From: an uncultured Bacteroidales bacterium
GTDB taxonomy: Bacteria; Bacteroidota; Bacteroidia; Bacteroidales; UBA7960
Direction of reading: 5' to 3'
Assembly: GCA_964601515.1 (NCBI GenBank)
Contig: CAZRNU010000018.1
Span: 1 to 34,521 of the forward strand
Length of the DNA stretch: 34,521 nucleotides
Below the pieces are notes generated by a model. It ran no database searches and was not told the DNA's origin. It was given only the letters and a program-made list of their open reading frames with translations. Position numbers and translations under genes: made by a program. Positions 15,236 through 28,136 of the stretch are shown piece by piece (within the stretch, counting starts at the first letter, position 1; every line of letters starts with the position of its first letter).

Positions 15236-15246
15236 TTATTACATAT

Positions 15247-15897: not shown

Positions 15898-15943
15898 GTT
15901 TAAGGTATAGGGTATTAGGTATAGGGTATTAGGTATTAGGTTG
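15895..15943. repeat. Heptamer tandem array (TAGGTTT AAGGTAT AGGGTAT TAGGTAT AGGGTAT TAGGTAT TAGGTTG). It fills the convergent gap between the response regulator stop (15895-97) and the hydE stop (15929-31), and overlaps the last 5 codons of hydE.
   Basis: Direct reading with period 7. Same unit family as the arrays at 18221-18255 and 33702-33757. Confidence 0.8.
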
Positions 15944-17011
15944 TCTTTCCAGGAATCTTTTAGAATCGCCCCACTCTCCATATCCTATTTCTGCACCCGC
16001 AAGTTTTATTCTACCTTCAATGCAGTTAGCACAATCTTCCGAGCTTTCATCTGTGCAAGGTTTATTCTCGTACAATTTATAATTGTCGCGGTAAATTCCT
16101 GGAGTTATGTTTGGCATTAAGATGTTTGCTCCAATGCGTATTGCTTTTTCTCTTCCAATTTTATCAATTGCCTGAAGAGCAGTGGTTGCAGCAATATTAA
16201 TGTCTTTCATCATTATTCTTAAAATTGCAACCATCTTTAGTGCTAGTCTGAAACGTTCTTCAAGTGGAATCAGGTTGTCTTTTTCTGAAAATAATGGTGT
16301 ATCGGCGTGCTCAATATATGGTCCCATGCCACACATGTCAATATCCATTTCTTTCATAAATAATAGATCATCTGCCAGATTTTCAATGGTTTGAAATGGC
16401 AACCCAATCATTACACCTGTTCCAACCTGAAATCCGATTTTCCTTAGTAATGATAAGCATTCAATCCTTTTTTCAAAACTATGGTTATTGTCGTTTGGAT
16501 GAAGTTTAGAATATAATTCTTTATTTGAAGCTTCAATACGCAACAGATATCTGTGAGCACCGGCATCATACCATTTGCGATATACTTCTTCAGTTTGTTC
16601 ACCACACGATAGTGTGATACCTAATTTGCCGTTAGATATCTCTTTTATTTGTTTTACCAGATTCTCAATTCTTGCAGTATTATTTTCACTTTGCAATTCA
16701 CCTGATTGAATAACAACAGAGCCGTAATTACTTTTTAAAGCAAAAGCAGCGGCTTCCAAAACTTCATTATCAGTTATATTATATCTTTCTACTTTCTTGT
16801 TGTCTCTTCTTATTCCACAATAATAACAGTTTTTTGAACAAATGTTAGACAGTTCTATTAAGCCTCTCAGATACACTTTATTCCCAATATAATCCTCTTT
16901 TACTTTTGATGATTTTTCGAAAATCAATTTCAAATCATCTTTTTCAGCATTAAGCAAAGTGATTAATTCATTTTTAGAGAAGCTCTCCTTATTTAAAATG
17001 TCTTTAACCAT
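15929..17011 (-). CDS. hydE: [FeFe]-hydrogenase maturase HydE (radical SAM, BioB-like)
   Basis: Radical-SAM CxxxCxxC (CSKNCYYCGIRR). Size and fold of BioB-like HydE. Sits with hydF and hydG. The ORF track start 17059 overlaps hydF by 56 nt; the ATG at 17011 (MVKDILNK...) gives an 8-nt overlap and is preferred. Confidence 0.8.
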   Translation of the reverse strand: MVKDILNKESFSKNELITLLNAEKDDLKLIFEKSSKVKEDYIGNKVYLRGLIELSNICSKNCYYCGIRRDNKKVERYNITDNEVLEAAAFALKSNYGSVVIQSGELQSENNTARIENLVKQIKEISNGKLGITLSCGEQTEEVYRKWYDAGAHRYLLRIEASNKELYSKLHPNDNNHSFEKRIECLSLLRKIGFQVGTGVMIGLPFQTIENLADDLLFMKEMDIDMCGMGPYIEHADTPLFSEKDNLIPLEERFRLALKMVAILRIMMKDINIAATTALQAIDKIGREKAIRIGANILMPNITPGIYRDNYKLYENKPCTDESSEDCANCIEGRIKLAGAEIGYGEWGDSKRFLERQPNT

Positions 17012-18215
17012 TGTTTTTTTGTTTAGTAAATGGTTGAGTAACTCTTTCAAAAATTCCATTAACCCAAGCTATAGCCATTCCATAGTTTGTAATTGGAATA
17101 TTTGCATGTTCGAATGGTTTTAGGCGAGAGATAATCTGTTTTCTTGTTACCATGCATCCGCCACATTGAATTACCATCTTGTAATTATGTATAGGTTTTT
17201 CAACAGCCGCAAGTCCTGCAACTATATCGAAGTTTAGCTTTTTTCCTGTATGATTTTCCAGCCAACGAGGAATCTTATGCCTTCCAATATCATCGCAACT
17301 TACGTGGTGAGTACAAGATTCAAGTATTAATAAGTTATCACCGTCTTCAAGCTTATCAATCATAGGTGTTCCGTTAAGAAATGCTTCGAAATCTCCTCTA
17401 AGCTTAGAAAAAACTATGCTGAAGCTTGTAAGCATTATATCGCTGGGAACAATTTTTGAAACAAAATTAAATACCTGACTGTCGGTAACAACAAGTGCTG
17501 GTTTTATGCCAAGTTTGAAAAAATCTTCCAACTCAGTTTCTTTAACCGACATACAAATACAATCATTATCAAGAACGTCTCTCCATGCCATAACCTGAGG
17601 CAAAATCATTCTTCCTTCCGGAGCTTCTGAATCAATAGGTGTAACCAGCAGTACAACATCTTTTGGCATTACAATCCCTTTAAATAATGAAGGTTTTGCA
17701 TAAGCAGTTTCCGGAATTGTTTTTTTTATTAAATCAACTAACTCATCAAAGTTGTTATGAACTTTGTTACTGAATGAGAAGGGTTTTTTACCTAGAAGGC
17801 TTAATATCTTTTCTGAAAAATCTTTTTCAAGGGGAACTATGTCTGACTTATTATGGATAATTATAAATGGTATTTCATAATAATTAAACTGATTAACAAG
17901 ACTTTCCTCGAATTCTCCATAAGTATTATCAGTGATTAGCATTATCCCAAGATCAATAACGGGAATCACTTGCAGTGTTTTCTCAATTCTAAGTTTTCCT
18001 AAATCACCAATATCGTCAATACCTGCTGTGTCAATAATTATTGCAGGACCAACTCCAAATATTTCAACTGACTTTTTAACAGGATCAGTTGTAGTTCCGG
18101 GATGGTCTGAAACAATCGCAATATTTTGCCCTGTGAGAAGATTGATAAATGAGCTTTTGCCATTGTTTCTTCTACCAAAAATTCCGATATGTGGTTTTAA
18201 ATCTTTGCCTTTCAT
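17004..18215 (-). CDS. hydF: [FeFe]-hydrogenase maturation GTPase HydF
   Basis: 403 aa. N-terminal G-domain (GRRNNGKSSFINLLTG, DTAG, NKSD). C-terminal cluster-binding CTHH...CGGC motif characteristic of HydF. Confidence 0.88.
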   Translation of the reverse strand: MKGKDLKPHIGIFGRRNNGKSSFINLLTGQNIAIVSDHPGTTTDPVKKSVEIFGVGPAIIIDTAGIDDIGDLGKLRIEKTLQVIPVIDLGIMLITDNTYGEFEESLVNQFNYYEIPFIIIHNKSDIVPLEKDFSEKILSLLGKKPFSFSNKVHNNFDELVDLIKKTIPETAYAKPSLFKGIVMPKDVVLLVTPIDSEAPEGRMILPQVMAWRDVLDNDCICMSVKETELEDFFKLGIKPALVVTDSQVFNFVSKIVPSDIMLTSFSIVFSKLRGDFEAFLNGTPMIDKLEDGDNLLILESCTHHVSCDDIGRHKIPRWLENHTGKKLNFDIVAGLAAVEKPIHNYKMVIQCGGCMVTRKQIISRLKPFEHANIPITNYGMAIAWVNGIFERVTQPFTKQKNNG

Positions 18216-18220
18216 TGAAT

Positions 18221-18255
18221 TTAGGTATTAGGTGTCAGGTATCAGGTATCAGGAT
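18221..18255. repeat. Heptamer tandem array TTAGGTA TTAGGTG TCAGGTA TCAGGTA TCAGGAT directly abutting the hydF start codon. On the coding (minus) strand it reads (CCTGATA)n...ATG.
   Basis: Direct reading with period 7. hydF ATG is the reverse complement of 18213-18215. Confidence 0.75.
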
Positions 18256-18261
18256 GTTCAT

Positions 18262-18345
18262 GCCTGAATAAGGTTGACCGTTTGTTTACTGCTTGTCATT
18301 CCGGGCGTAAGCGAGGAATCCCGTTATTCAGAGATTCTTCTTATT
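18262..18345. other. Nested inverted-repeat element in the hydG-hydF spacer. Outer stem CTGAATAA(GG)/(CC)gTTATTCAG encloses inner stem ATTCC-12 nt-GGAAT. A second TTATTCA copy follows.
   Basis: Outer arms 18264-18273 and 18321-18331. Inner arms 18298-18302 and 18315-18319. No U-run follows on either strand. Confidence 0.4.
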
Positions 18346-18360
18346 CAAAGTTGTTAGTTC

Positions 18361-19788
18361 CTAAAAATAAAGATCTCTTTTTCCGTTTTTAAGTTGTTCT
18401 ATCCTTTCTCTAAGCTTCGCTTTAACCTTTTCATCAGGCAGAGCTTCTATATTCTTTTCAATTACTTGCCATCCCTTATGCGATGTGTTTTCAGGAGCGT
18501 AATCTAAAAGGTACTCAGCCAAGGTTAGAATAGCATTTGGAGAACAAAACCTTTTTATAAAACCAGGAACAGAAAATTCCATGAAATGTTCACCTGTTCT
18601 GCCAAGTCGATAGCATGCAGTACAAAAAGAAGGTAACATATTATGGTCAAGAAGTTCCTCTATAATTTCGTTTAAGGATCTTTCATCATTAATACGAAAC
18701 TGACCTTTGTTCAAATCTTGTTCTGTGTTTTGGGTTCTGGAATAACTTCCAAGTTCAAGTTTAGTACCACCGTCAATTTGACTAACACCGTAATTTATAC
18801 ATTCATTTCTAATTTCTTTGGGTTCGCGAGCAGTTAGTATCATACCTGTATAAGGTACCGCAAGCCTTAGTATTGCAATCATTTTTGCAAAGTCGCTGTC
18901 GCTAACAATATATTTTGATCCCATTTGAAGCATTGAAGCATCTTTAATTCTTGGGAAAGAAATTGTATGAGGACCAACATTATAGCAGGCTTCAAGATGA
19001 TTAGTGTGTCTTATTAATCCTAAAACTTCATATCTCCAATCATATAGACCGAATAATGCACCAATGCCAACATCATCTAATCCGGCTTCCTGAGCTCTGT
19101 CTAGAGAAGTTAATCTATAATTGAAGTCAGCTTTTTTACCTCTTATATGATATGTTTTGTATGCTTCAGGGTGGTATGTTTCCTGAAATACCTGAAAAGT
19201 TCCAATTCCGGCTTCTTTTACTTTTCTAAATCCTTCAATTTCTAGGGGAGCAGCATTTATGTTTACTCTTCTAATCTCACCGTTGCCTTTTTTTACCGAG
19301 TATGCAAGCTTTGTGCAATGTGCAATATAGTCGGCATCGTATTGATCGTGTTCGCCAAAAACAAGGATTAAACGTTTTTGCCCGTTATCTTCAAGTGCTT
19401 CTATTTCTTGTGTAATTTCAATATCAGACAGAGTCTTTCTTACAGCATCTTTATTGCTAGCTCTGAATCCGCAATATGTACAGTTGTTTTTACATTTATT
19501 ACCAATGTATAATGGAGCAAAAAGAACGATGCGATTACCATAAATGTTTTCTTTAAGTTTACGAGCACCATCTTTTATCATTTCTACCAGGTCAGGATCA
19601 GTTGTGTTTGTTAAAACAGCAGTTTCCTGCATGCTAAGCCTGTTTTTTGATAGAGATTTTTCAATGATATCTTTAATTAATGCTCTGTCAGGTTTTGCAT
19701 TGTTAAGTATGTCATGAATCTCTTCAGGGTCAATGAAAGGCTGCATTGGCGCATCGGGAATCCTATATTGTTGAGTAATAAATTTCAT
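18361..19788 (-). CDS. hydG: [FeFe]-hydrogenase maturase HydG (radical SAM, ThiH-like tyrosine lyase)
   Basis: 475 aa. CKNNCTYCGF radical-SAM motif. C-terminal auxiliary-cluster cysteines (FCTACYRLGRTGEHF...FCSPNA). ThiH-like length. Confidence 0.88.
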   Translation of the reverse strand: MKFITQQYRIPDAPMQPFIDPEEIHDILNNAKPDRALIKDIIEKSLSKNRLSMQETAVLTNTTDPDLVEMIKDGARKLKENIYGNRIVLFAPLYIGNKCKNNCTYCGFRASNKDAVRKTLSDIEITQEIEALEDNGQKRLILVFGEHDQYDADYIAHCTKLAYSVKKGNGEIRRVNINAAPLEIEGFRKVKEAGIGTFQVFQETYHPEAYKTYHIRGKKADFNYRLTSLDRAQEAGLDDVGIGALFGLYDWRYEVLGLIRHTNHLEACYNVGPHTISFPRIKDASMLQMGSKYIVSDSDFAKMIAILRLAVPYTGMILTAREPKEIRNECINYGVSQIDGGTKLELGSYSRTQNTEQDLNKGQFRINDERSLNEIIEELLDHNMLPSFCTACYRLGRTGEHFMEFSVPGFIKRFCSPNAILTLAEYLLDYAPENTSHKGWQVIEKNIEALPDEKVKAKLRERIEQLKNGKRDLYF

Positions 19789-19816: not shown

Positions 19817-20935
19817 TTAAGCAGGAATTTTTATTATAAACTTGCTTCCAACATCAGGAGTGCTTTCAACTCTAATGTTGCCCTTATAAAGTTCCACCAT
19901 TTTTTTTGCTATAGATAGCCCCAATCCGCTTCCGGTAATGAACTTTGTTTTGTTGTTTTTAATTCTGACAAAATCTTGGAATAACAACCCTATCTCATCT
20001 TCCGACATTCCTATTCCGGTATCTTCAATAACGATATCTATATTTCCACCATTTTTTCGCAGAGAAACAAAGACCTCACCGTTTTCTTTGTTGTATTTTA
20101 CAGCATTAGAAATCAGGTTATTAAGAATAATTTCAACCTCGTTTTTATCGGCCATCATAAACAAAGACTCATCACAATCCATTTTTAGTTTAATGTTTCT
20201 TTGAATCGCTAGAGGTTCAACTGAGTCAGCTACGGTTCTTGCTATTTCTATAATGTCAATATTTCTTAAATCGCGATTTTTCTTTCCTGATTCCATTCTT
20301 GTAAGGTCGAGCAAGTCGAGGATTAGGTTTCTCATACCTTTAATCCTTTCTATCGACCTATCAACCATTTCCATATAATCATCAAGGTTGTTTCCTAACT
20401 GCTGATCTTTCATCATTTTAAGATAGCCCTCAATTGCATTAATGGGAGATTTTAGTTCGTGAGAAAGAACTGATAGAAATTGAAAGCGAATCTGTTTTCC
20501 TTCTTCTTTCATTTTTCTTGTCATTCTCCTCAAGAATAGATTTTTTGTAATATTTTCGACAGAAGTTTTTAGCTCCTGAGGTGTAAATGGCTTTGGAACG
20601 AAATTAAATGCACCATTATTAGTTGCTTTTATTGCTAATTCAAGTGAAGCGTAGGAAGTAATCATCATAACAGAAATGTCATATTCTTTATTTTTGATAT
20701 ACTCTAAAACTTCAATGCCATCAATACCGGGAAGCTTGTTGTCAAGCAAAATAATATCAAAAGGCGTAGAATCAATCATTTCTATAGCCTTTTCACCAGT
20801 TTCTGCCTCATAGATTTCAAACGTAAAATCTTCATCCATAAAAGGATAGCCTACTGAGAAATCTCTAAGGACTCTCTCGGCTCCTGATCTGATGCCCGGT
20901 TCATCATCTACGATTAATAATTTTAAGGCGCTCAT
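19817..20935 (-). CDS. Hybrid REC-histidine kinase (N-terminal receiver, then HisKA + HATPase_c; no sensor or TM domain)
   Basis: 372 aa. Receiver LLIVDDEPGIRSG...ILLDNKLPGIDG. H-box LSHELKSPINAI. N-box ISNAVKYN. G1 EDTGIGM. G2 GSGLGLS. Confidence 0.85.
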   Translation of the reverse strand: MSALKLLIVDDEPGIRSGAERVLRDFSVGYPFMDEDFTFEIYEAETGEKAIEMIDSTPFDIILLDNKLPGIDGIEVLEYIKNKEYDISVMMITSYASLELAIKATNNGAFNFVPKPFTPQELKTSVENITKNLFLRRMTRKMKEEGKQIRFQFLSVLSHELKSPINAIEGYLKMMKDQQLGNNLDDYMEMVDRSIERIKGMRNLILDLLDLTRMESGKKNRDLRNIDIIEIARTVADSVEPLAIQRNIKLKMDCDESLFMMADKNEVEIILNNLISNAVKYNKENGEVFVSLRKNGGNIDIVIEDTGIGMSEDEIGLLFQDFVRIKNNKTKFITGSGLGLSIAKKMVELYKGNIRVESTPDVGSKFIIKIPA

Positions 20936-20938
20936 AAC

Positions 20939-21337
20939 TTATATTTTTAAAAGTTTATTTATTTCTCTATGAAGTTGATCCGGTCTTAGGCCTTTTTCAA
21001 GGTATAAGTCGGCTTTTATCCATCCTCTGTCAGTTTCATCTTCCAGGCTGAAAATCATTCCTGTTTCCGAAGTCATTGCAGAAGCAATAATTACAGGTAC
21101 TTCAGGGTAGCGGTTTTTAATTCTATGACTAAGGATAAAGCCGCTATCTTTATTTTCCATCATAAGATCAAGAATTGCAAGGTCAGGTTTGATTTTGCCA
21201 ATCATGTCTTCACCTTCCTTTTGGCCGCAAGCACTTATTACTTCAAAGCCAATGCTTTCAAGAATCTTTGTCATTTGAAAGATATAGTCTACATCGTCAT
21301 CTACCAGAAAGATTTTCTTTTTATTATTTGTTTCCAT
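20939..21337 (-). CDS. Single-domain response-regulator receiver (CheY-like); paralogue of 27636..28136
   Basis: KKIFLVDDDVDYIFQMTKILESIGFEVISA...KPDLAILDLMMEN. No output domain. The ORF track start 21400 overlaps the upstream gene; the ATG at 21337 (METNNKKKIF...) is preferred. Confidence 0.8.
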   Translation of the reverse strand: METNNKKKIFLVDDDVDYIFQMTKILESIGFEVISACGQKEGEDMIGKIKPDLAILDLMMENKDSGFILSHRIKNRYPEVPVIIASAMTSETGMIFSLEDETDRGWIKADLYLEKGLRPDQLHREINKLLKI

Positions 21338-21347
21338 AGCTATTTTT

Positions 21348-23333
21348 TTAATTAATTCTAGGTAATGTAATTTTAAATTCTGTTCCTGTTTGGCCCGCAT
21401 TTGGGTTTGAGTTTGATTTTACTGCAATTTTACCACTGTGCATTTTAATAATACCATAAACAAGTGGTAGCCCTAATCCGGTTCCTTTTCCTATTTCTTT
21501 AGTTGTGAAAAATGGAGTAAATAGTTTATCCATATTTTCTTCAGGTATTCCTGAGCCTGTATCACAGATGTTTATTTCGATATGTTTATCATCTCCATTT
21601 ACGAATATATTTATCTCCCCACCTTCAGGCATTGCTTCAATGGCATTTTTTTCAATGTTTGTAAAAACCTGAATCATTTGGTCAGGGTCAAGCATTAAGA
21701 ATGGGTCTGATATTCCTGAAATTACAGATGTTTTAATGTTTGCAGGAATAACCACAGAGTCCAAACTGTGATGTAAAAACTCCACAATATCAACCTCCTG
21801 AACTTTAATTTTATTTTTTCTTGCAAAGTTTAGCAAGCCACTAACAATACCTTTGCATCTGTGTGCTTGTTCAACAATCAAAGCAACATCTTTTCGAAGA
21901 GGGTCTTCAGTTTTTAGCTCATCGAGAATAATATTGCTGTACATGGTAATTACACCAAGTGGGTTATTTAACTCATGAGCTATTCCGGCAGAAATTTGCC
22001 CCATATTTGCTAGTTTCTCGGAATGTTTCAACGCAAGCTTTGTGTTTTTAAGCTTTTCATTTGAGTCGTTTAGATCAGCAACATATTTGTGCAATTTCTC
22101 TATTGTATAAGGCAAGCACATTTCAGATTCAGCATAGCCTTGTACTACAGATATTGCATGTTCATAGCATGTTTCATAGCCACAGGCACCACAATTTAAA
22201 TAATCAGAAGTTTTTATCTTACCCATTCTATTAAGAACTTGCTTAATTTCCTCCTGATCAGGGTCAGATATTCTCCTGTCTAGTGCTCTGAATGTTTGCG
22301 AAAGATTTAGGTCTTTGTAATTATCTATATTCTGATTCCACTTTTCTAAATCTAGATTAGCAATTTTCTCTTTAACATATTTGCTGATTTGGGATCGTTT
22401 AAAGAAATACTTGTTCTTTTCACTCATCCCCGGGCCTAAAATACAGCCTTCACAGCAAAGAAGTTCCAGATTATAGTTTGAAATTTCGCCTCTTTCAAAT
22501 TCTTTGATAGCTTCTTTAAAGTTGTGCTTTCCAGAATCTACTATAACATTTCCTTCTGCGATATTATCGCTCTTTTTTAGGTTTTGCGACAAGCCTCTTG
22601 TTACAGGGAAAATGGCACCCATTGCTGATTGCGGTCCGTCAAAATCTCCAGCTTCAACTTCGCTTGAAGTTATTTTATATTTCTCAAACAGATCGCGTAA
22701 TTCTCGGAATGTTATTGCAACATCAATTTCGTCAGATTCAGCTTTTTTTGCAAAACAAGGCCCTATAAAAACTGTTTTTACATTATTCCCGTATGTTTCT
22801 TTTATTAGTCTTGATGTTGCCACCATCGGAGAAACAATAGGAGCAATTTTATTTACAAGTTCCGGATGAAAATGTTCTATATAAAAAACTACTGCCGGAC
22901 AATCTGAAGAAATAAATGTTTGTTGTGAATTGTCTTCTAATAGTTGATTATATTTTTTTGCAACAAGATCAGCGCCGAATGCTACATCAAACACTTTATC
23001 GAATCCCAGTTTTCTTAACATTCCTGTAAGAATTCTATAGTCATTTATATCAGTAAATTCAGCTGGGAAGCTAGGTGCAAGCAGTGCATATACCGGCGCT
23101 TCTTTTGTTTGCAAGAGTGATTCTACCTCTGATTTTAAATCCAGTACAACTTTAGCATTTTGACTACAAACAGAAACACAATTACCACATCCAATACATC
23201 TTTCACTTAGTACCTCTGCCTGTCCGTTTATTATTTTTATTGCTTTAACAGGACATTCCCTCACGCAGGTAAAGCAAACCCTGCATTTATCTTTCACTGT
23301 GAATACTAATTCATTTCTTTTTGCATGTCCCAT
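21348..23333 (-). CDS. [FeFe]-hydrogenase-like (H-cluster-type) domain fused to a histidine kinase: putative sensory hydrogenase kinase (HydS-like, no PAS)
   Basis: 661 aa. aa 17-56: two 4Fe-4S ferredoxin motifs (CRVCFTCVRECP, CIGCGNCVSVC). aa ~70-300: domain alignable to adjacent HydA, with SSDCP (cf. TSCCP), GPCFAKKAE (cf. MPCTAKKFE) and LLCCEGCILGPG (cf. EVMACPGGCINGGG). An extra 4-Cys cluster, NCGACGYETC...EMC. Coiled-coil linker. H-box AGIAHELNNPL. N-box EKNAIEAMPEGG. G-boxes CDTGSGIPEE and GKGTGLGLPLV. Confidence 0.8.
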   Translation of the reverse strand: MGHAKRNELVFTVKDKCRVCFTCVRECPVKAIKIINGQAEVLSERCIGCGNCVSVCSQNAKVVLDLKSEVESLLQTKEAPVYALLAPSFPAEFTDINDYRILTGMLRKLGFDKVFDVAFGADLVAKKYNQLLEDNSQQTFISSDCPAVVFYIEHFHPELVNKIAPIVSPMVATSRLIKETYGNNVKTVFIGPCFAKKAESDEIDVAITFRELRDLFEKYKITSSEVEAGDFDGPQSAMGAIFPVTRGLSQNLKKSDNIAEGNVIVDSGKHNFKEAIKEFERGEISNYNLELLCCEGCILGPGMSEKNKYFFKRSQISKYVKEKIANLDLEKWNQNIDNYKDLNLSQTFRALDRRISDPDQEEIKQVLNRMGKIKTSDYLNCGACGYETCYEHAISVVQGYAESEMCLPYTIEKLHKYVADLNDSNEKLKNTKLALKHSEKLANMGQISAGIAHELNNPLGVITMYSNIILDELKTEDPLRKDVALIVEQAHRCKGIVSGLLNFARKNKIKVQEVDIVEFLHHSLDSVVIPANIKTSVISGISDPFLMLDPDQMIQVFTNIEKNAIEAMPEGGEINIFVNGDDKHIEINICDTGSGIPEENMDKLFTPFFTTKEIGKGTGLGLPLVYGIIKMHSGKIAVKSNSNPNAGQTGTEFKITLPRIN

Positions 23334-23358: not shown

Positions 23359-25083
23359 CTATAAAAGAACATCTCTTTTGCAATAATGTGTGTGAAGCAA
23401 TTCATGAGATTTGTGACCTAGCGGTTTGCCAAGGAAATCTTTGTAAATTTGAATGATTTCAGGGTTCTTATGTGATACCTTGATTGTTTCTTTGTCATCA
23501 ATATCATATAATGCTTTCATTCTGGCTTTTACAGCTTCCTCAGAGGCTCCAATGTGTTGTCCGCCTCCATTAATACAACCACCCGGGCAAGCCATTACTT
23601 CAATGAAATGATAGTTTTTCTTACCTTCATTAACTTGTTTCAACAGTTTTCTTGCATTAGCAAGTCCGTTTACAACGGCAACATTTACTGTTAGACCATT
23701 TATTTCAAGAGAAGCTTCTTTACAACCATCTAATCCCCTTAAAGCCTCAATTTTAAATCTCATTAATTCTTCTCCGGTAAGCATGTTATAAGCTGTTCTA
23801 ACTGCAGCTTCCATAACCCCACCTGATGCGCCGAATAGTTTTCCGGCAGAACTTCTGAATCCAAGAGGAGAGTCAGTTGTTTCAGGTGCGATATTGTTTA
23901 TATCTATGCCAAACATTCTGATAAGCTGACCTAATTCACGGGTTGTAAGCACTGCATCTACATCAGTAATTCCTTTATTGGTCATCTCTTCTCTTTGTGC
24001 TTCAAATTTCTTTGCAGTACAAGGCATGATTGAAACTGAATAAATATTTTCAGGTTTTATTCCGGCTTTTTCAGCCCAGTAAGTTTTTATTACTGCACCC
24101 ATCATTTGTTGAGGTGATTTACAGCTTGATAAATTTGGAAGCATCTCAGGATAAAACTCTTCAGCAAATTTTACCCAACCCGGACAACAACTTGTTATCA
24201 TTGGAAGTGTTCCACCTGTTTTTACTCTCTCAACTAGTTCGGCAGCTTCTTCCATAATTGTAAGGTCTGCTGTGAATGTTGTGTCGAAAACATATTTGAA
24301 TCCGATTTTACGCAATGCTGCATTCATAACGCTGTTAATATCCAATCCGGCAGGAAGCTTGAATTCTTCTGCAAGTGATACTGAAATTGATGGAGCATAC
24401 TGAACAACAACAGTTTTTTCCGGATTATTTAGCATTGCAATCAATTCAGGGAAGTGGCTTTTTTCTGATAAAGCTCCAGTAGGACAAACCATAATACATT
24501 GACCGCAGTTTACACAGCTTGATGTATTTAGTCCAATATTAAATGCTGAACCAATAACCGATTGACTACCTCTATTGATGAAGTCTATGCAGGCAACACC
24601 CATTACATCTTCACAAATACGAACACAACGTCCGCAAAGGATACATTTGTCAGGATCTCTAACAATGCTTGCACTCGACCTGTCAAGATGATTGCTGTTT
24701 TTAACTCCTTTTATTCTGCGTTCACGAACCTGTAATTCTTCTGATAAGTCTTGAAGTTCACAATTTTTGTTTCTTACGCAGTAAAGACAGTCATCCGGGT
24801 GGTTTGATAAAAGCAGCTCAACAATGGTTTTTCTTGACTCAATAACACGAGGAGAATGAGTAAGCACCTTCATGCCTTCTTCTACCGGTGTTGAGCATGC
24901 AGTAACTAATCTGTTAGTGTTAACATTTTCAACTACACACATACGGCAGGAACCTGAAGGAAAGCTACCTTTTATATGGCAAAGAGTTGGAATATGAATG
25001 CCTTGTCTTTTTAATGCATCCAGGATAGTTTCACCTTTCCTTGCTTCGATTTGTTTATTATTGACTTCTATTAAAAAACTCAT
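23359..25083 (-). CDS. hydA: [FeFe] hydrogenase catalytic subunit HydA (CpI-like M3 architecture)
   Basis: 574 aa. N-terminal plant-type 2Fe-2S (CHIKGSFPSGSCRMC...C). His-ligated 4Fe-4S (HPDDCLYCVRNKNC). Two ferredoxin-type 4Fe-4S (CILCGRCVRICE, CVNCGQCIMVCP). Canonical H-cluster motifs TSCCPGW, MPCTAKKFE, EVMACPGGCINGGGQ. Confidence 0.93.
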   Translation of the reverse strand: MSFLIEVNNKQIEARKGETILDALKRQGIHIPTLCHIKGSFPSGSCRMCVVENVNTNRLVTACSTPVEEGMKVLTHSPRVIESRKTIVELLLSNHPDDCLYCVRNKNCELQDLSEELQVRERRIKGVKNSNHLDRSSASIVRDPDKCILCGRCVRICEDVMGVACIDFINRGSQSVIGSAFNIGLNTSSCVNCGQCIMVCPTGALSEKSHFPELIAMLNNPEKTVVVQYAPSISVSLAEEFKLPAGLDINSVMNAALRKIGFKYVFDTTFTADLTIMEEAAELVERVKTGGTLPMITSCCPGWVKFAEEFYPEMLPNLSSCKSPQQMMGAVIKTYWAEKAGIKPENIYSVSIMPCTAKKFEAQREEMTNKGITDVDAVLTTRELGQLIRMFGIDINNIAPETTDSPLGFRSSAGKLFGASGGVMEAAVRTAYNMLTGEELMRFKIEALRGLDGCKEASLEINGLTVNVAVVNGLANARKLLKQVNEGKKNYHFIEVMACPGGCINGGGQHIGASEEAVKARMKALYDIDDKETIKVSHKNPEIIQIYKDFLGKPLGHKSHELLHTHYCKRDVLL

Positions 25084-25101
25084 AGCAGTATGTTTTTAAA
25101 A

Positions 25102-27054
25102 TTATACTATTTCAATTGCTTCAAATTTGCATACATCATAGCAAGCACCACATCCGATACATTTATCTTCTACAATAAAATGAGGAGCTTTTTTACTACC
25201 TATGATGGCATTAACAGGACATTTTTTTGTACATACTGTACAACCTGAGCATTTATCAACGTCTATTTTATATACTTTCAGGTTTTGGCAAACTCCTGCA
25301 GGACAATGTCTGTCGAAAACGTGAGCTTCATATTCGTTTTTAAACCATTTTAGTGTACTTAATACAGGGTTTGGAGCTGTTTGTCCTAAGCCACAAAGTG
25401 AAGTGTCCTTAATAACTTTGCTTAGCTTTTCAATTTGCATTACACCTTTAAATCTGTCAAGAGCTTCAGTTTTGTCGTTAGCATTAGGTTTTGATGTTAT
25501 ACTTTCAAGGATTTCAAGCAGTCTTTTTGTTCCTTCACGGCAAGGGATACATTTTCCACAGCTCTCGCGCTGAATAAATCCCATAAAGAATTTTGCAACA
25601 TCAACCATGCAAGTTTTGTCATCCATTACTACAAGTCCACCTGATCCCATCATTGCACCAACTTTAATTAAGGATTCGTAGTCAATTTGAATATCCAGGT
25701 TTTCTTCAGTTATGCAACCGCCTGATGGTCCACCTATTTGAACAGCTTTAAATTTGCCATTATCCATAATACCGCCGGCAATATTGAAAAGGATTTCTCT
25801 AACGGTTGTTCCCATTGGAATTTCAACAAGACCTGTAAGAGCAATTTTGCCTGATAAAGCAAATACTTTTGTTCCTTTGCTGTTTTCTGTTCCGGTTGAT
25901 GCAAACCAATCTGCCCCGTTTTCTATAATAGTAGAAACATTTGCAAAAGTTTCCACATTGTTTATTACAGTTGGTTTTCCAAATAGTCCGCTTGTAGTTG
26001 GGAATGGTGGTCTTGGGCGTGGCATACCTCTTTTACCTTCAATGCTATGCATTAACGCCGTTTCTTCACCGCAAACAAAAGCACCTGCACCTTTTTTGAT
26101 TTTTATTTCAAAATCAACTCCTGTTTCAAAAATATTTTTTCCAACGAGTCCGTATTCTTTTGCTTGTTTAATTGCTATTTCAAGTCTTTCAATTGCTAGT
26201 GGGTATTCTGCACGAATATAAATATATGCTTTAGTTGCTCCAATTGCATAAGCTCCAATTGCCATACCTTCGATTAGCTTATGAGGGTCACCTTCTATAA
26301 CAGCTCTGTCCATAAAAGCACCCGGATCGCCCTCATCTGCATTGCAAATAAGATATTTCTGATCACTTTTTTCAGAGTTTGCAAATTTCCATTTGCGACC
26401 TGTTGGGAAGCCACCGCCCCCTCTGCCTCTTAATCCGCTTTTTTCAATAATGTCGCATACTTCAAAAGCAGTATATGAATTGATGGCTTTAATATAACTT
26501 TTATATCCGCCTCTAGCAATGTATTCTCCAATGTCAACCGGGTCAATTATACCACAGTTTTTCAATACCAATCTTTTTTGTGGAGCGAAAAAAGGATGTT
26601 CGTTCAAGAATTTTGCACCTTGCCATTTTGATGCACCCGGCAATTCTATTTGCCCTAAGATTTCTGCATCCGGAAGTTCAAGATTGAAAATGCTGTTTAG
26701 AGCTTTTTCAACTTTTTCTTCTGTCATATTTTGTAAAGCAAGTCTGTTGTGCCCCGGAAGTTGAACATCGAGAATTGGCTCAACTGCACAAAGGCCTATA
26801 CATCCGGTTTCAATAACCTTAGCTGTGATGTTTTTTTCGTTCAGGTATTTTTTTACGGCTGAAAGGGTTTTGCCGGCTCCGGCACCAAGACCGCATGTTC
26901 CCGAACCTACATATATTAAAGGTTCGCTTATTTTTTCATGACGTAATATAGAAATTTGCTCAAGCAATTCTTTGTCTTTTGAATTGTTTGTAAAATCCCT
27001 CAAAACATCATTAATAAGGAAATCTTTTACGGAATTATTATTTTGTACGTTCAT
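25102..27054 (-). CDS. hydB: NuoF-like flavoprotein subunit HydB of trimeric [FeFe] hydrogenase (NAD(H)- and FMN-binding, multiple Fe-S)
   Basis: 650 aa. N-terminal thioredoxin-like 2Fe-2S region. FMN/NADH block GRGGGGFPTGRKW. 51-kDa-subunit 4Fe-4S motif ESCGKCIPCREGT. Two C-terminal ferredoxin motifs (CSGCTVCTKKCP, CIGCGACYDVC). Confidence 0.9.
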   Translation of the reverse strand: MNVQNNNSVKDFLINDVLRDFTNNSKDKELLEQISILRHEKISEPLIYVGSGTCGLGAGAGKTLSAVKKYLNEKNITAKVIETGCIGLCAVEPILDVQLPGHNRLALQNMTEEKVEKALNSIFNLELPDAEILGQIELPGASKWQGAKFLNEHPFFAPQKRLVLKNCGIIDPVDIGEYIARGGYKSYIKAINSYTAFEVCDIIEKSGLRGRGGGGFPTGRKWKFANSEKSDQKYLICNADEGDPGAFMDRAVIEGDPHKLIEGMAIGAYAIGATKAYIYIRAEYPLAIERLEIAIKQAKEYGLVGKNIFETGVDFEIKIKKGAGAFVCGEETALMHSIEGKRGMPRPRPPFPTTSGLFGKPTVINNVETFANVSTIIENGADWFASTGTENSKGTKVFALSGKIALTGLVEIPMGTTVREILFNIAGGIMDNGKFKAVQIGGPSGGCITEENLDIQIDYESLIKVGAMMGSGGLVVMDDKTCMVDVAKFFMGFIQRESCGKCIPCREGTKRLLEILESITSKPNANDKTEALDRFKGVMQIEKLSKVIKDTSLCGLGQTAPNPVLSTLKWFKNEYEAHVFDRHCPAGVCQNLKVYKIDVDKCSGCTVCTKKCPVNAIIGSKKAPHFIVEDKCIGCGACYDVCKFEAIEIV

Positions 27055-27056
27055 AA

Positions 27057-27518
27057 TTATTCTTGATTACGATAGTTATCCAAAATTTCTTTAATCGATT
27101 CGCCTGTTACTTTTGCATGGAAGTTCCCATTAATTGCTATAACAGGTGCGAGTCCGCATGCTCCGATACAAGCCACAACCTCAAGGCTGAATACACCATC
27201 CCTTGAGGTTTGACCTGATTTAACTCCAATATTTTTTTCTATTTCATCCAAAACTGTTGCTGAGCCAAGAACGTGACATGCTGTACCCCTGCATACCTGA
27301 ATATGATTCTTGCCTAGTGGGGTAAATCTAAATTGGTTGTAAAATGTTGCTACTCCAAATATTTTACTTGCCGGCATCTTTAAATACTGTCCAACCTCAA
27401 TTACTGCTTCTTTCGATAAATATCCATCATGATCTTGAATGTCTTGCAGTATTGGAATTAGGCTGTCAGCACTTCCTTCAGGATAATTTGTTAGAATTGA
27501 TTTTATGTTTGTTTCCAT
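27057..27518 (-). CDS. hydC: NuoE-like thioredoxin-fold [2Fe-2S] subunit HydC
   Basis: CRGTACHVLGS...CIGACGLAPV cysteine pattern of the 24-kDa subunit family. The ATG at 27518 (METNIKSILTNYPEG...) is preferred over the ORF track start 27617, whose 33-aa extension has no family-like sequence. Confidence 0.85.
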   Translation of the reverse strand: METNIKSILTNYPEGSADSLIPILQDIQDHDGYLSKEAVIEVGQYLKMPASKIFGVATFYNQFRFTPLGKNHIQVCRGTACHVLGSATVLDEIEKNIGVKSGQTSRDGVFSLEVVACIGACGLAPVIAINGNFHAKVTGESIKEILDNYRNQE

Positions 27519-27635: not shown

Positions 27636-28136
27636 TTACTTGATATGTTTTTCAACTTCTGCAGTAAGTTTTTCTGCCTCAACTGGTTTTCTAATGAACC
27701 CATTTACCGGGAACCAATATGTTTTTCCATCTTCACCTTTATAATCAATTCCTGCTGTTCCGTCATTGATGTTTTTTACAAGAAGAACCTGTAAATCTTT
27801 AAAGTTTGGATCTTTTCTGTATTCACGAGCCATTTCCTGAACAGCTGCTTTAGAAGTAACAAGAATGTCTATTGAAGACTGGATTAGGAAAGGAATGTTT
27901 TTTACTTCAGGGCTGTTTAGAATTGCTTGAGCTAGTTCAAAACCTTCGTAAGGAGTTGTCATCATTACGTCAAGAATTGCAAGGTTGGGTTTTTCATTGC
28001 GAAGCTTTTCAAGACCTTCGGTTTTGCTCATTGCAGAGATTACTTCATAACCGGCTTTGGTTAAAACTGCTTTTACTAATGTGATCACATCGATGTCGTC
28101 ATCTACGATTAGAATTCTTTTTTTTGTTGTTTCCAT
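27636..28136 (-). CDS. Single-domain response-regulator receiver with about 45-aa C-terminal tail; paralogue of 20939..21337
   Basis: KRILIVDDDIDVITLVKAVLTKAGYEVISA...KPNLAILDVMM. Shares the block pattern V/LDDD-x-D-x-I...G(F/Y)EVISA...KP(D/N)LAILD(L/V)MM with the other receiver. No output domain. Confidence 0.8.
   Translation of the reverse strand: METTKKRILIVDDDIDVITLVKAVLTKAGYEVISAMSKTEGLEKLRNEKPNLAILDVMMTTPYEGFELAQAILNSPEVKNIPFLIQSSIDILVTSKAAVQEMAREYRKDPNFKDLQVLLVKNINDGTAGIDYKGEDGKTYWFPVNGFIRKPVEAEKLTAEVEKHIK

What the first reader, a model, noticed from the sequence alone, without database searches (positions are those of the whole stretch)
19817..23333. Hydrogenase-domain histidine kinase plus receiver and REC-kinase hybrid wedged between hydABC and hydGFE: candidate H2/redox-sensing phosphorelay
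What the sequence shows:
- The 661-aa product of 21348..23333 carries two ferredoxin 4Fe-4S motifs, then a domain that aligns motif-for-motif with the H-cluster domain of the adjacent HydA.
- The cysteines that would ligate the [4Fe-4S]H subcluster are all present: C145 in SSDCP, C193 in GPC, and C293/C297 in LCCEGC.
- An accessory 4-Cys cluster follows, then a coiled-coil linker, then a complete HisKA/HATPase_c transmitter. There is no PAS domain.
- Intergenic gaps of only 3-28 nt link it to a single-domain receiver (20939..21337) and a REC-HisKA-HATPase hybrid (19817..20935), and then to hydG.

Established knowledge: putative sensory [FeFe] hydrogenases (group C, HydS type) carry a PAS domain and sit next to kinases or phosphatases. 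H-cluster assembly requires HydE, HydF and HydG, all encoded here.

Inference: a direct H-domain to kinase fusion inside a 9-gene co-directional string (27518 down to 15929). It suggests a phosphorelay that reads H2 or ferredoxin/NADH redox state at the enzyme-cofactor level. The sensor would itself need the maturases it is co-transcribed with.
Basis: partly seen in the sequence, partly recalled or inferred. Interest (0 to 1): 0.85.

Follow-up and report, generated by a model that had tools for sequence, protein, structure and literature searches.

The report
Hydrogenase-domain histidine kinase in hydrogenase operon
A Bacteroidales gene fuses an iron-hydrogenase-like sensor module directly to a histidine kinase inside an electron-bifurcating hydrogenase operon; this is real and probably a hydrogen or redox sensor, but it belongs to a large, already catalogued and still untested family.

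Summary
Window 21348-23333 (-) encodes a 661-aa protein with two [4Fe-4S] motifs, a compact [FeFe]-hydrogenase H-domain, a Cx2Cx4Cx16C accessory cluster, a long helix, then HisKA and HATPase_c, with no PAS. It lies between hydCBA and hydGFE, followed by a receiver and a REC-kinase hybrid.

Two corrections: the L3 cysteines are C294/C297, not C293/C297, and a tenth co-directional gene (receiver REC0) probably heads the string.

The fusion is not rare. All 120 listed close homologues share it, as do 45 of 148 aligned sequences (the query plus 147 diverse relatives). It occurs in MAGs of at least seven phylum-level labels. HydDB already has a "histidine kinase-linked" group C1, and a 2024 paper noted HATPase_c in C1 proteins.

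New here:
- The sensor-REC-REC-kinase triad is conserved next to hydABC and/or maturase genes in four phylum-level groups (next to hydABC in three).
- The spacing from the last accessory-cluster cysteine to the phospho-histidine is 47 residues in 252 proteins and otherwise mostly changes by whole heptads.
- The Bacteroidales clade has an invariant Asp where catalytic enzymes have the proton-relay Cys.

Most likely this is an H2-responsive kinase in which accessory-cluster redox state is passed through a coiled coil. No experiment exists, and the output regulator is unknown.

The parts
21348..23333 (-). Sensor kinase (661 aa): Fer4x2, H-domain, accessory 4-Cys cluster, signalling helix, HisKA, HATPase_c
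   Evidence: ORF; Pfam. Homologues of 654-669 aa cover 100% of the query, which supports the start codon. The N-terminal ~430 aa of the AF2 model match [FeFe] hydrogenases and the C-terminus matches ZraS.
23154..23297 (-). Two ferredoxin-type [4Fe-4S] motifs (aa 13-60; C17, C20, C23, C27 and C46, C49, C52, C56)
   Evidence: Fer4 family hits. All eight Cys are conserved in every sequence that covers the position (C17-C27 in 120 of 121 rows, the other being a gap; C46-C56 in 121 of 121).
22431..23096 (-). Compact H-cluster domain (aa 80-301). Ligands C145, C193, C294, C297; K196 = CpI K358; A86-P87-S88 = CpI 230-232
   Evidence: Fe_hyd_lg_C E 1e-48. Residue map for C145, C193, K196, C294 and C297 from the HMMER alignment to CpI; A86-P87-S88 mapped through the adjacent HydA and CpI numbering from memory. 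Invariance. pLDDT is 85-96 over most of the domain.
22902..22904 (-). Codon of D144, at the position of the proton-relay Cys (CpI C299)
   Evidence: Aligned to residue 299 of CpI; the C299D variant 6glz is the best CpI hit. D is invariant in 121 Bacteroidales family members. The position is hypervariable in other relatives (A, C, P, S, T, N, H) and mostly Pro in the non-Bacteroidota kinase fusions.
22116..22193 (-). Accessory cluster motif Cx2Cx4Cx16C (C381, C384, C389, C406)
   Evidence: PF04060 hit. At least 90% conserved across 148 aligned sequences. Same motif as in M2e/M2f enzymes (PMC8163306).
21978..22115 (-). Signalling helix (aa 407-452) from C406 to the phospho-acceptor H453 (codon 21975-21977)
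   Evidence: Helices 407-427 and 432-472 in the model. Heptad series L414, L421, L428, L435, A442, A449, all invariant except L421, which is at least 90% conserved. Cys-to-His spacing is 47 in 252 proteins, otherwise 33, 40, 54 or 68.
21357..22004 (-). HisKA (aa 444-506) and HATPase_c (aa 549-659) transmitter
   Evidence: Pfam. H453, N559/N563, D591xGxG and G617xGxG are invariant. Best solved relative is ZraS, E 1e-32.
20939..21337 (-). REC1, single-domain receiver (132 aa)
   Evidence: Response_reg E 1e-14. Acidic pair, phospho-Asp and Lys present. Orthologues of 131-140 aa immediately follow the sensor in every locus that extends far enough.
19817..20935 (-). REC-HisKA-HATPase_c hybrid kinase (372 aa)
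   Evidence: Pfam. Conserved after REC1 in all loci that extend far enough. Homologues in other phyla are 490-499 aa and carry an extra PAS.
23359..27518 (-). hydC (27057-27518), hydB (25102-27054) and hydA (23359-25083): NADH-dependent/bifurcating-type [FeFe] hydrogenase
   Evidence: HydA scores 841 bits against NF040763, cutoff 765. NuoF-like and NuoE-like subunits.
15929..19788 (-). hydG (18361-19788), hydF (17004-18215) and hydE (15929-17059): H-cluster maturases
   Evidence: TIGR03955, TIGR03918 and TIGR03956, all above cutoff.
27636..28136 (-). REC0, a second single-domain receiver (166 aa) and paralogue of REC1; probable first gene of the string
   Evidence: Response_reg. 45% identity to REC1 over about 90 aa. 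Conserved upstream of hydC in the window-type loci.
28202..28306 (-). Conserved non-coding elements upstream of REC0: block AATTGCNNAAAAGTAYYGGTTTT (28284-28306), AAAACAGGA (28243-28251), Bacteroidetes -7-like TAATTTTA (28202-28209)
   Evidence: Alignment of upstream regions from 11 loci; sequence. Function not tested.
13148..15897 (+). Cache/PAS/HisKA_3 kinase (13148-15235) and REC-GerE (LuxR-type) regulator (15247-15897): the only DNA-binding two-component protein near the locus
   Evidence: Pfam. Linked to the locus in L001 and L002 (convergent), in L006 (pair upstream, at 43-45% identity), and in L069 and L070 (co-directional after hydE). In L007 and L032 only a LuxR-type regulator hit lies upstream, at 31% and 63%.

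Best explanation
The 661-aa protein is a sensory [FeFe]-hydrogenase of the group C kind (HydS-like) in which the usual C-terminal PAS domain is replaced by a complete histidine-kinase transmitter. Proposed mechanism:

1. **Inferred.** HydE, HydF and HydG, encoded in the same string, install a [2Fe] subcluster on the [4Fe-4S] site ligated by C145, C193, C294 and C297.
2. **Inferred.** H2 is split slowly at this H-cluster. The invariant D144 carboxylate stands in for the proton-relay cysteine. Electrons equilibrate over the two N-terminal clusters and the accessory Cx2Cx4Cx16C cluster.
3. **Geometry shown, function inferred.** The fourth ligand of the accessory cluster, C406, caps a continuous coiled-coil helix of fixed heptad register that carries the phospho-acceptor H453. 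The redox state of that cluster would therefore change helix packing and switch autokinase activity.
4. **Inferred from conserved adjacency.** Phosphoryl groups go to the adjacent single-domain receiver REC1 and/or to the receiver of the REC-kinase hybrid, which acts as a second-tier kinase or phosphatase.
5. **Weakest step.** The network ends on a regulator outside the three-gene cassette. In this organism the candidates are the paralogous receiver REC0 and the linked REC-GerE regulator. The outcome would be to tune expression of hydCBA and hydGFE, and so of the sensor itself, to H2 partial pressure.
For: **Domain architecture and fold.**

**H-cluster residues.** All four cluster cysteines, K196 (K358 in CpI) and A86-P87-S88 are invariant in 121 family members. 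The cysteines and K196 are mapped on CpI.

**Resemblance to studied enzymes.** The Fer4x2, H-domain and Cx2Cx4Cx16C layout is the same as in TmHydS and TamHydS, as are the M353 to G and M497 to L replacements. Both enzymes bind an H-cluster and react with H2 (PMC8163306).

**D144.** It is invariant in the clade. CpI C299D keeps 30-80% of H2-release activity, and its carboxylate H-bonds to the adt amine (PMC6226526).

**Gene order.** hydC-hydB-hydA-sensor-REC-REC-HK is found in every informative Bacteroidales locus (31 of 31 with hydA directly upstream), down to 52% identity. The same sensor-REC-REC-HK triad lies between hydCBA and hydG/E in a Calditrichia MAG and in a contig whose sensor sequence NCBI labels Deltaproteobacteria, and next to hydGEF in an Armatimonadota genome.

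**Linker.** The C406-to-His spacing is exactly 47 residues in 252 proteins from several phyla. The other lengths in this H-box class are 33, 40, 54 and 68, all 5 mod 7, with only two off-register singletons at 48 and 49. Two other small kinase subgroups (a PhoR-like H-box group and the pair P0183/P0184) keep their own registers: 24, 24, 38 and 27, 34. L414, L421, L428, L435, A442 and A449 form a heptad series, invariant except L421 at 90% or more.

**Transmitter and receivers.** Kinase catalytic motifs are invariant, and the receivers have their catalytic residues.

**Transcription.** No terminator-like site on the - strand lies within 15929-28136.
Against: - No member of the kinase-fused class has been studied experimentally in the literature I could search.
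- The H-domain is about 60 residues shorter than in HydA, with six deletions.
- The proton pathway beyond D144 is gone: E279 is deleted, E282 aligns to K and R286 to L.
- Authors studying Hydrogenedentota C1 proteins could hardly find canonical H-cluster motifs and doubted H2 sensing (PMC11406978).
- In other kinase-fused clades the C299 position is mostly Pro, so a proton relay there is not general.
- Sequence cannot separate H2 sensing from sensing of ferredoxin/NADH redox poise.
- No DNA-binding output is encoded in the conserved triad.
- Co-transcription is inferred only from spacing and the absence of terminator-like sites.
- The AF2 model has low confidence in the linker (pLDDT below 50 at aa 420-454) because it was modelled as a monomer.
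Confidence: 0.6

Rival explanations
1. Redox-poise sensor rather than H2 sensor. The iron-sulfur chain, with or without a [2Fe] subcluster, is reduced and oxidised by ferredoxin, by NADH via HydABC, or by another donor. The kinase reports the cell's electron-carrier state, not H2.
For: - Two N-terminal ferredoxin-type clusters are retained and invariant; in catalytic enzymes they talk to external partners.
- The proton pathway is lost beyond D144.
- The H-domain is compact, with six deletions.
- The same module is fused to many outputs, as a generic redox input domain would be: sigma-54 activators 15, PAS about 30, GGDEF 2, HD 1.
- Type II loci already carry a classical HydS-like gene with a SpoIIE phosphatase gene upstream, so a second sensor might read something else.
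Against: - The bridging Cys (C297), K196 and the APS motif serve the [2Fe] subcluster specifically, and all are invariant.
- D144 is invariant at the residue that contacts the adt amine (PMC6226526).
- The gene is tied to hydG/E/F across phyla.
- TmHydS and TamHydS, with similar substitutions, do hold H-clusters (PMC8163306).
Confidence: 0.22
2. Degenerate pseudo-hydrogenase scaffold. The H-domain binds at most a [4Fe-4S] cluster and serves as a dimerisation or docking domain (for example onto HydABC), or as an O2/iron-sulfur integrity sensor. The kinase is controlled mainly by the receivers.
For: - Some relatives have lost cluster cysteines (P0158) or the phospho-His (P0202 has Cys at that position), which shows that decay happens in this superfamily.
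- Canonical P1-P3 signatures are not matched literally: SSDCP, GPC and ELLCCxGC in place of TSCCP, MPC and ExMACxxGC.
Against: In this family every cluster ligand and pocket residue is invariant over 59-92% identity. That is the opposite of decay. The kinase motifs are also intact.
Confidence: 0.08
3. The protein is an extra catalytic or electron-input subunit of the HydABC complex, and the kinase domain is incidental.
For: A metabolic role for a C1 protein next to bifurcation subunits was raised for Cloacimonadota (PMC8542988). A C3 protein was drawn as a 'BfuT' subunit in Hydrogenedentota (PMC11406978).
Against: The transmitter is complete and invariant, and two receiver-containing proteins are always downstream. 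The linker register is fixed relative to the phospho-His. Selection therefore acts on signalling.
Confidence: 0.05

Closest known systems
TmHydS, putative sensory [FeFe] hydrogenase of Thermotoga maritima (group C, M2f)
   Same: Two N-terminal [4Fe-4S] motifs, an H-domain, and a C-terminal Cx2Cx4Cx16C motif. M353 is replaced by Gly. The proton-relay Cys is not retained. [quoted passage not shown]
   Different: TmHydS ends in a PAS domain and has no kinase. Here the accessory cluster is followed directly by a coiled coil, HisKA and HATPase_c. On my NJ tree the PAS-type proteins form a separate clade. M497 is Ser in TmHydS and Leu here. From memory, the C299 position is Ala in TmHydS; it is Asp here.
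TamHydS, Thermoanaerobacter mathranii (group D, M2e)
   Same: No PAS domain. M497 is replaced by Leu. Same cluster layout. [quoted passage not shown]
   Different: TamHydS has no fused transmitter, and M353 is Ser rather than Gly. How its signal is transduced is an explicitly open question in that paper.
HydDB [FeFe] group C1, 'histidine kinase-linked (putative)'
   Same: Defined as putative H2 sensors acting through histidine kinases (PMC5037454). A Bacteroidales (Petrimonas mucosa) protein close to hnd genes was classed as C1 (PMC7768429). Hydrogenedentota C1 proteins carry a HATPase_c domain (PMC11406978).
   Different: In most published descriptions the kinase is a neighbouring gene (PMC6163223, PMC8542988). 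The Hydrogenedentota authors note that their best HydDB C1 match lacks the kinase domain. I could not run HydDB on this sequence, nor confirm that the Petrimonas protein is its orthologue.
Regulatory [NiFe] hydrogenase systems HoxBC-HoxJ-HoxA and HupUV-HupT-HupR (HydDB [NiFe] group 2b)
   Same: A low-activity hydrogenase controls a histidine kinase that governs hydrogenase gene expression (group 2b description in PMC5037454; system details from my own knowledge).
   Different: Unrelated metal centre and fold. In those systems the sensor and kinase are separate proteins in a complex, with one cognate DNA-binding regulator. Here they are one polypeptide, followed by a receiver and a second kinase, with no DNA-binding regulator in the cassette.
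Sigma-54 enhancer-binding proteins with Fer4, Fe_hyd_lg_C and FeS input domains (Clostridiales)
   Same: The same three-part sensor module is used as the input domain of a signalling protein (PMC6615313). It is found in 15 of 147 relatives here.
   Different: Those are one-component transcription activators, not kinases.
Signalling-helix sensor kinases such as FixL and the engineered YF1 (4gcz), and N-terminal-REC hybrid kinases such as LvrB (8vc9)
   Same: A coiled-coil linker whose heptad register sets kinase output (my own knowledge of YF1/FixL). 4gcz and 8vc9 are among the PDB hits of the transmitter. The REC-HisKA-HATPase order of the second kinase equals that of LvrB (NF047466 appears among the sensor transmitter's weak NCBIfam hits, 104 bits against a cutoff of 500; the domain order of LvrB is from my own knowledge).
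   Different: The input here is an iron-sulfur cluster ligand at the helix N-terminus, not a PAS/LOV core. Scores are far below the NCBIfam cutoffs, so neither kinase is a member of those named families.

Membership tests
[FeFe]-hydrogenase H-domain (Pfam PF02906) | Significant match to Fe_hyd_lg_C over the whole domain | tested here: met
   E 1.1e-48, 166.5 bits against a cutoff of 22.1; profile positions 2-245 of 245. Foldseek probability 1.0 to CbA5H, DdHydAB, TmHydABC and CpI.
[FeFe]-hydrogenase H-domain (Pfam PF02906) | Four cysteines ligating [4Fe-4S]H, one of them bridging to [2Fe]H (CpI C300, C355, C499, C503) | tested here: met
   C145, C193, C294 and C297 align to these positions and are invariant in 121 family members.
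[FeFe]-hydrogenase H-domain (Pfam PF02906) | Actually binds an H-cluster and reacts with H2 | not testable with these tools
   Needs expression with HydEFG or [2Fe]adt, followed by FTIR/EPR.
Prototypical catalytic group A [FeFe] hydrogenase | Signature motifs TSCCP, MPCxxK and ExMACxxGC, and the proton pathway C299-E279-S319-E282-R286 | tested here: not met
   The motifs are SSDCP, GPCFAKK and ELLCCEGC. E279 falls in a 4-residue deletion, E282 aligns to K and R286 to L. NCBIfam group A models score far below cutoff: 102 against 406, and 96 against 765.
Putative sensory [FeFe] hydrogenases, group C (M2f, HydS type) | N-terminal 2x[4Fe-4S], H-domain, and C-terminal Cx2Cx4Cx16C motif | tested here: met
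   C381, C384, C389 and C406 have exactly that spacing (motif definition from PMC8163306).
Putative sensory [FeFe] hydrogenases, group C (M2f, HydS type) | C-terminal PAS domain | tested here: not met
   No PAS hit at E up to 0.01. The model shows no alpha/beta fold between aa 303 and 443.
Putative sensory [FeFe] hydrogenases, group C (M2f, HydS type) | Active-site Met353 and Met497 replaced, and proton-relay Cys not retained | tested here: met
   G191, L292 and D144. The Asp is unusual: the position is hypervariable in relatives.
Putative sensory [FeFe] hydrogenases, group C (M2f, HydS type) | Encoded with a group A (bifurcating) hydrogenase | tested here: met
   hydA is directly upstream in the window and in 31 of 31 informative loci.
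HydDB [FeFe] group C1 (histidine kinase-linked) | Assignment by HydDB's k-NN classifier or sequence-similarity cluster | not testable with these tools
   HydDB is not available here. The support is indirect only: the Petrimonas C1 call (PMC7768429), whose orthology to this protein I could not verify.
HydDB [FeFe] group C1 (histidine kinase-linked) | Linked to a histidine kinase | tested here: met
   Fused to one, and followed by a second.
HisKA-type sensor histidine kinase | H-box His, N-box, and G1 and G2 boxes | tested here: met
   H453-E-L-N-N-P, N559/N563, D591xG593xG595 and G617xG619xG621, all invariant. ZraS cytoplasmic domain E 1e-32.
HisKA-type sensor histidine kinase | Autophosphorylation, and transfer to a cognate receiver | not testable with these tools
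   Needs biochemistry.
Named kinases ZraS, AtoS, NtrB | NCBIfam equivalog score above the curated cutoff | tested here: not met
   AtoS 172 against 646, ZraS 155 against 479, NtrB 86 against 240. The similarity is confined to the transmitter.
Classical His-Asp-His-Asp phosphorelay | An Hpt domain or Spo0B-like phosphotransferase between two receivers | tested here: not met
   No Hpt hit in any of the ten products of the string, REC0 to HydE.

The most novel reading that the evidence does not exclude
The sensor kinase, single receiver and REC-kinase triad is a conserved, so far undescribed, three-component H2-signalling cassette that travels with bifurcating [FeFe] hydrogenases and their maturases across bacterial phyla. 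In it the redox state of the accessory [4Fe-4S] cluster is converted into kinase output through a coiled coil of fixed 47-residue register. The Bacteroidales branch has in addition evolved a natural 'C299D' H-cluster pocket, giving a sensor that still turns over H2. It would be the first [FeFe] system in which H2 sensing can be read out directly as autophosphorylation of one polypeptide.
Probability: 0.35. Interest if true: 0.7.

Novelty: new member of a known kind. Interest (0 to 1): 0.45.

Why it matters
How putative sensory [FeFe] hydrogenases pass on their signal is an open question, stated explicitly for TamHydS in PMC8163306. No member of the class has been shown to control anything.

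In a kinase-fused member, sensing and output sit on one polypeptide. 'Does H2 change the signal?' therefore becomes a simple autophosphorylation assay.

The fixed heptad register between the accessory-cluster ligand and the phospho-histidine gives a concrete, mutable hypothesis for the coupling. The conserved triad names the first phosphotransfer partners to test.

In Bacteroidales fermenters such a system could set when the bifurcating hydrogenase is made. That bears on H2 turnover in anoxic sediments, digesters and guts.

The find itself is not new biology. The family is abundant in databases and already has a class name.

Tried and rejected
- **Rfam.** A scan of the whole window at gathering thresholds found nothing.
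- **Promoter scans.** The sigma-70 promoter scan found fewer sites than shuffles and does not suit Bacteroidota. The Bacteroidetes TTTG-N-TAnnTTTG pattern was at chance level, 4 sites against 3.9 expected, with none at the operon start.
- **Sigma-54 promoter.** By eye, I found no convincing -24/-12 promoter upstream of REC0. A TGGCA...TTGCA pair has the wrong spacing (sequence).
- **Palindrome upstream of REC0.** CTGCAA-N5-TTGCAG (28293-28321) is present in full only in the window and L003, so I did not treat it as an operator.
- **Literature access.** Greening et al. 2016 (ISME J), which first described group C, is not held. The original definition of C1 architecture therefore rests on HydDB's table and on later users of HydDB.
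- **Petrimonas.** I could not verify that Petrimonas ING2E5A_0849 is the orthologue. Its gene numbers leave three genes between it and hnd, unlike the arrangement here.
- **Named cultured organisms.** The cluster-member look-up gave no named cultured organism.
- **Pfam on all 148 relatives.** This exceeded the size limit, so I repeated it in two halves.
- **Cryptic PAS.** I rejected a hidden PAS domain on the basis of the model.
- **Chance neighbourhood.** I rejected this on the basis of synteny.

Full report
**What is there**

The 661-aa product of 21348-23333 has these Pfam hits:

| Domain | Residues | Score |
|---|---|---|
| Fer4 dicluster | 13-60 | several Fer4 models |
| Fe_hyd_lg_C | 80-301 | E 1e-48, full-length on the profile |
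| PF04060 'FeS' | 379-408 | E 1.6e-8 |
| HisKA | 444-506 | E 3e-12 |
| HATPase_c | 549-659 | E 4e-23 |

There is no PAS hit. An AlphaFold2 model built on 54 family sequences gives pLDDT 85-96 for most of the H-domain. Residues 303-406 are only helix and loop. Helices 407-427 and 432-472 run into the DHp. Foldseek matches the N-terminal ~430 residues to [FeFe] hydrogenases (CbA5H, DdHydAB, TmHydABC, CpI) and the C-terminus to the ZraS cytoplasmic domain, all at probability 1.0.

The neighbours are:
- an NADH-dependent/bifurcating-type HydA (841 bits against NF040763, cutoff 765), with NuoF-like HydB and NuoE-like HydC upstream;
- a 132-aa receiver, a REC-HisKA-HATPase hybrid, then HydG, HydF and HydE downstream. 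The HydG, HydF and HydE matches are all above their equivalog cutoffs.

The gaps are 25, 10, 3 and 28 nt around the three regulatory genes. No terminator-like site on the - strand lies between 15929 and 28136.

**Corrections to the observation**

1. A HMMER alignment to CpI maps the residues as in the table below. Its best CpI hit is, tellingly, the C299D variant 6glz.

| Sensor residue | CpI position |
|---|---|
| D144 | C299 |
| C145 | C300 |
| G191 | M353 |
| C193 | C355 |
| K196 | K358 |
| L292 | M497 |
| C294 | C499 |
| C297 | C503 |

The loop between the last two cysteines is one residue shorter than in CpI. C294 and C297 are invariant in 121 family members, whereas C293 is Ser in three. 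Across 148 aligned sequences the motif is C-x-G-C. The ligand pair is therefore C294/C297, not C293/C297.

2. A receiver gene, REC0 (27636-28136), lies 117 nt upstream of hydC. It is 45% identical to REC1 over about 90 residues. It is conserved at that place in the window-type loci. Conserved non-coding blocks, including a Bacteroidetes -7-like TAATTTTA, lie upstream of REC0 rather than of hydC. The string is therefore probably ten genes.

3. No Hpt domain exists in the string, so it is a multi-kinase network and not a classical phosphorelay.

**How common it is**

- The 120 best database hits (59-92% identity, 633-677 aa, nearly all 653-672) all have the same architecture. Those that carry names are Bacteroidota or Bacteroidales.
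- A search of one-per-50%-identity representatives with the sensor module alone gave 964 proteins at E below 1e-30.
- Of the 147 nearest representatives, 43 carry HATPase_c and 41 HisKA. Fifteen carry a sigma-54 activator AAA+ domain, roughly 30 PAS, 2 GGDEF and 1 an HD domain.
- A profile of 22 non-Bacteroidales kinase fusions recovered another 120 proteins of 664-700 aa (nearly all 664-692) with the identical architecture. Their labels include Chloroflexota, Armatimonadota, Calditrichia, Pseudomonadota, 'Deltaproteobacteria' and Planctomycetota.
- On a neighbour-joining tree of the sensor module (no support values), the classical PAS-type proteins of about 575 aa form one clade. Kinase and sigma-54 fusions fill the rest. 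The window protein sits in a sub-clade whose full-length members all carry the kinase.

**What the literature says**

- HydDB lists [FeFe] group C1 as 'histidine kinase-linked (putative)' (PMC5037454).
- A Petrimonas (Bacteroidales) protein close to hnd genes was called C1 (PMC7768429).
- Hydrogenedentota C1 proteins were reported to contain HATPase_c, with doubts about their H-cluster motifs (PMC11406978).
- Other papers describe C1 genes beside separate kinase genes (PMC6163223, PMC8542988).
- The sigma-54 activator fusion of the same module is catalogued for Clostridiales (PMC6615313).
- The biochemically studied relatives are TmHydS (group C, PAS) and TamHydS (group D, no PAS). Both share the Fer4x2, H-domain and Cx2Cx4Cx16C layout. 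How they signal is stated to be unknown (PMC8163306).
- I found no experimental study of a kinase-fused member.

*(a) Synteny.* In 31 of 31 Bacteroidales loci with upstream sequence, hydA directly precedes the sensor. REC1 and the REC-kinase follow wherever the contig allows, down to 52% identity, and hydG follows in 18. The same triad, with a PAS inserted in the hybrid kinase, lies between hydCBA and hydG/E in a Calditrichia MAG and in a contig whose sensor sequence NCBI labels Deltaproteobacteria. In an Armatimonadota genome it lies next to hydGEF. The conserved unit is therefore sensor, receiver and REC-kinase.

*(b) Linker register.* The distance from the fourth accessory-cluster cysteine (C406) to the phospho-histidine is exactly 47 residues in 252 proteins. 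The other lengths in this H-box class are 40 (10 proteins), 54 (4), 33 (3) and 68 (1), all 5 mod 7, with two singletons off register at 48 and 49. Two other small kinase subgroups (a PhoR-like H-box group and the pair P0183/P0184) show 24, 24, 38 and 27, 34, again differing by multiples of seven. Taking distinct lengths only, five of seven fall in one residue class. By my hand calculation the chance of that is about 0.005. L414, L421, L428, L435, A442 and A449 form a heptad series, invariant except L421 at 90% or more. This is the signature of a rigid coiled-coil signalling helix that starts at a cluster ligand.

*(c) D144.* It is invariant in the Bacteroidales clade. The position is hypervariable elsewhere and mostly Pro in the other kinase fusions. 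In CpI, C299D is the one substitution that keeps substantial activity (30-80%), and its carboxylate H-bonds to the adt amine (PMC6226526). The rest of the proton pathway is absent.

*(d) Two locus types.* Window-type loci have REC0 plus, in the window, L001, L002, L006, L069 and L070, a linked Cache/PAS/HisKA_3 kinase and REC-GerE regulator, in varying orientation and co-directional after hydE in two closed genomes. In L007 and L032 only a LuxR-type regulator hit lies upstream. The second locus type, which includes the Rikenellaceae-labelled MAGs, has a divergent upstream gene that hits the sensor at 36-41%. In L008, the one locus I examined, that gene encodes a second, HydS-like protein, it is followed by a SpoIIE phosphatase gene, and a Rex-like gene follows the hybrid kinase.

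**Most likely mechanism**

The protein is a HydS-type sensory hydrogenase whose output domain is a kinase.
1. HydEFG mature its H-cluster.
2. H2 is split slowly, and the iron-sulfur chain, including the accessory cluster, equilibrates with H2.
3. The redox state of the accessory cluster alters the coiled coil that begins at C406, and with it the autokinase activity at H453.
4. Phosphoryl groups pass to REC1 and/or the receiver of the hybrid kinase.
5. The network ends on a regulator outside the triad that sets hyd expression.

The architecture, residue conservation, synteny and linker register are shown. Cofactor binding, the nature of the signal, the phosphotransfer routes and the output are inferred. 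I put 0.6 on this model.

The main rival, at about 0.22, is that the same iron-sulfur chain reports ferredoxin/NADH redox poise rather than H2. Sequence cannot separate the two. A degenerate scaffold (0.08) or a catalytic subunit (0.05) fits the invariance of the pocket and transmitter residues poorly.

**Verdict**

- The protein is a new member of a catalogued but experimentally untouched class. It comes from a 34.5-kb MAG contig whose closest relative, at 92%, is a 'Bacteroidetes bacterium' MAG.
- Its value is as a tractable test system for how [FeFe] sensory hydrogenases signal. The register rule and the conserved triad give specific experiments.

Noticed in passing
window 28519-33690 (+): Divergent from REC0 lies a soluble [NiFe] hydrogenase gene set. 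It comprises a NuoE/NuoF fusion (597 aa), a HoxU-like protein (234 aa), a small subunit (182 aa), a large subunit (483 aa) and a maturation protease (162 aa). The large subunit's best NCBIfam hit is VhuA, far below cutoff. The contig therefore carries two NAD(H)-linked hydrogenases back to back, sharing a 382-nt intergenic region. The NuoEF gene is also adjacent in L001 and L003.
   Followed up: partly
window 13148-15897 (+): A Cache_3-Cache_2/PAS/HisKA_3 kinase and a REC-GerE regulator converge on hydE. The pair is convergent in L001 and L002, upstream in L006 (at 43-45% identity), and co-directional right after hydE in L069 and L070. In L007 and L032 only a LuxR-type regulator hit lies upstream, at 31% and 63%. 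The pair is linked to the hyd locus and may be its transcriptional output or a second input.
   Followed up: partly
window 28202-28321 (-): Conserved non-coding elements lie upstream of REC0: AATTGCNNAAAAGTAYYGGTTTT (28284-28306), AAAACAGGA (28243-28251) and a -7-like TAATTTTA (28202-28209). A 12-bp-stem palindrome, TTTTCTGCAA...TTGCAGAAAA (28293-28321), was scored as terminator-like on the - strand, but it is present in full only in the window and L003.
   Followed up: partly
L008 2153-5221 (-) and 13634-15227 (+); the same upstream hit in about 15 further loci (L010, L011, L013, L014 and others, several labelled Rikenellaceae): In L008 the hydCBA-sensor-REC-REC-HK block is flanked upstream by a divergent second sensory-type protein (Fer4, Fe_hyd_lg_C, FeS; 623 aa; about 38% identical) followed by a SpoIIE phosphatase gene, and downstream by Rex-like and RibF genes. 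Two different hydrogenase-like sensors therefore flank one bifurcating hydrogenase. In the other loci only the divergent upstream hit to the sensor (36-41%) was seen.
   Followed up: partly
L072 1-2579 (+): The contig whose sensor sequence NCBI labels Deltaproteobacteria also has a second HydS-like gene, followed by DRTGG and small HATPase_c genes, upstream of hydCBA. This resembles the TamHydS neighbourhood described in PMC8163306. The kinase-fused sensor lies downstream.
   Followed up: no
relatives P0148, P0155, P0167, P0172, P0173, P0177, P0179, P0180, P0185, P0191, P0192, P0207, P0219, P0224 and others: The same Fer4, H-domain and FeS module is fused to sigma-54 activator AAA+ domains (15 of 147, 10 of them with an HTH_8 DNA-binding domain), to GGDEF (2), to an HD domain (1) and to REC-containing proteins (3). 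It is a promiscuous input domain. The sigma-54 form is catalogued in PMC6615313.
   Followed up: partly
relatives P0202 and P0158: P0202 keeps the 47-residue spacing but has Cys in place of the phospho-acceptor His, so it may be a pseudokinase. P0158 has lost several H-cluster cysteines (IASNDP, GPDIASK). Both are examples of decay within the superfamily.
   Followed up: no
window 17004-17059 (-): The longest hydE ORF overlaps hydF by 56 nt. The HydE family match starts at residue 19, and a Met at residue 17 would reduce the overlap to 8 nt, so the true hydE start is probably at 17011.
   Followed up: no
window 18216-18360 (-): A 145-nt gap between hydG and hydF is the largest inside the string. 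No terminator-like site was found in it. An internal promoter or RNA element was not examined beyond the negative Rfam scan.
   Followed up: no
non-Bacteroidota kinase fusions P0278-P0394: In these proteins the residue at the CpI C299 position is Pro in 99 of 117, Ser in 9 and Thr in 1, with 8 unassigned by my pattern. A proline facing the adt amine would preclude a side-chain proton relay. This contrasts with the invariant Asp of the Bacteroidales clade.
   Followed up: no
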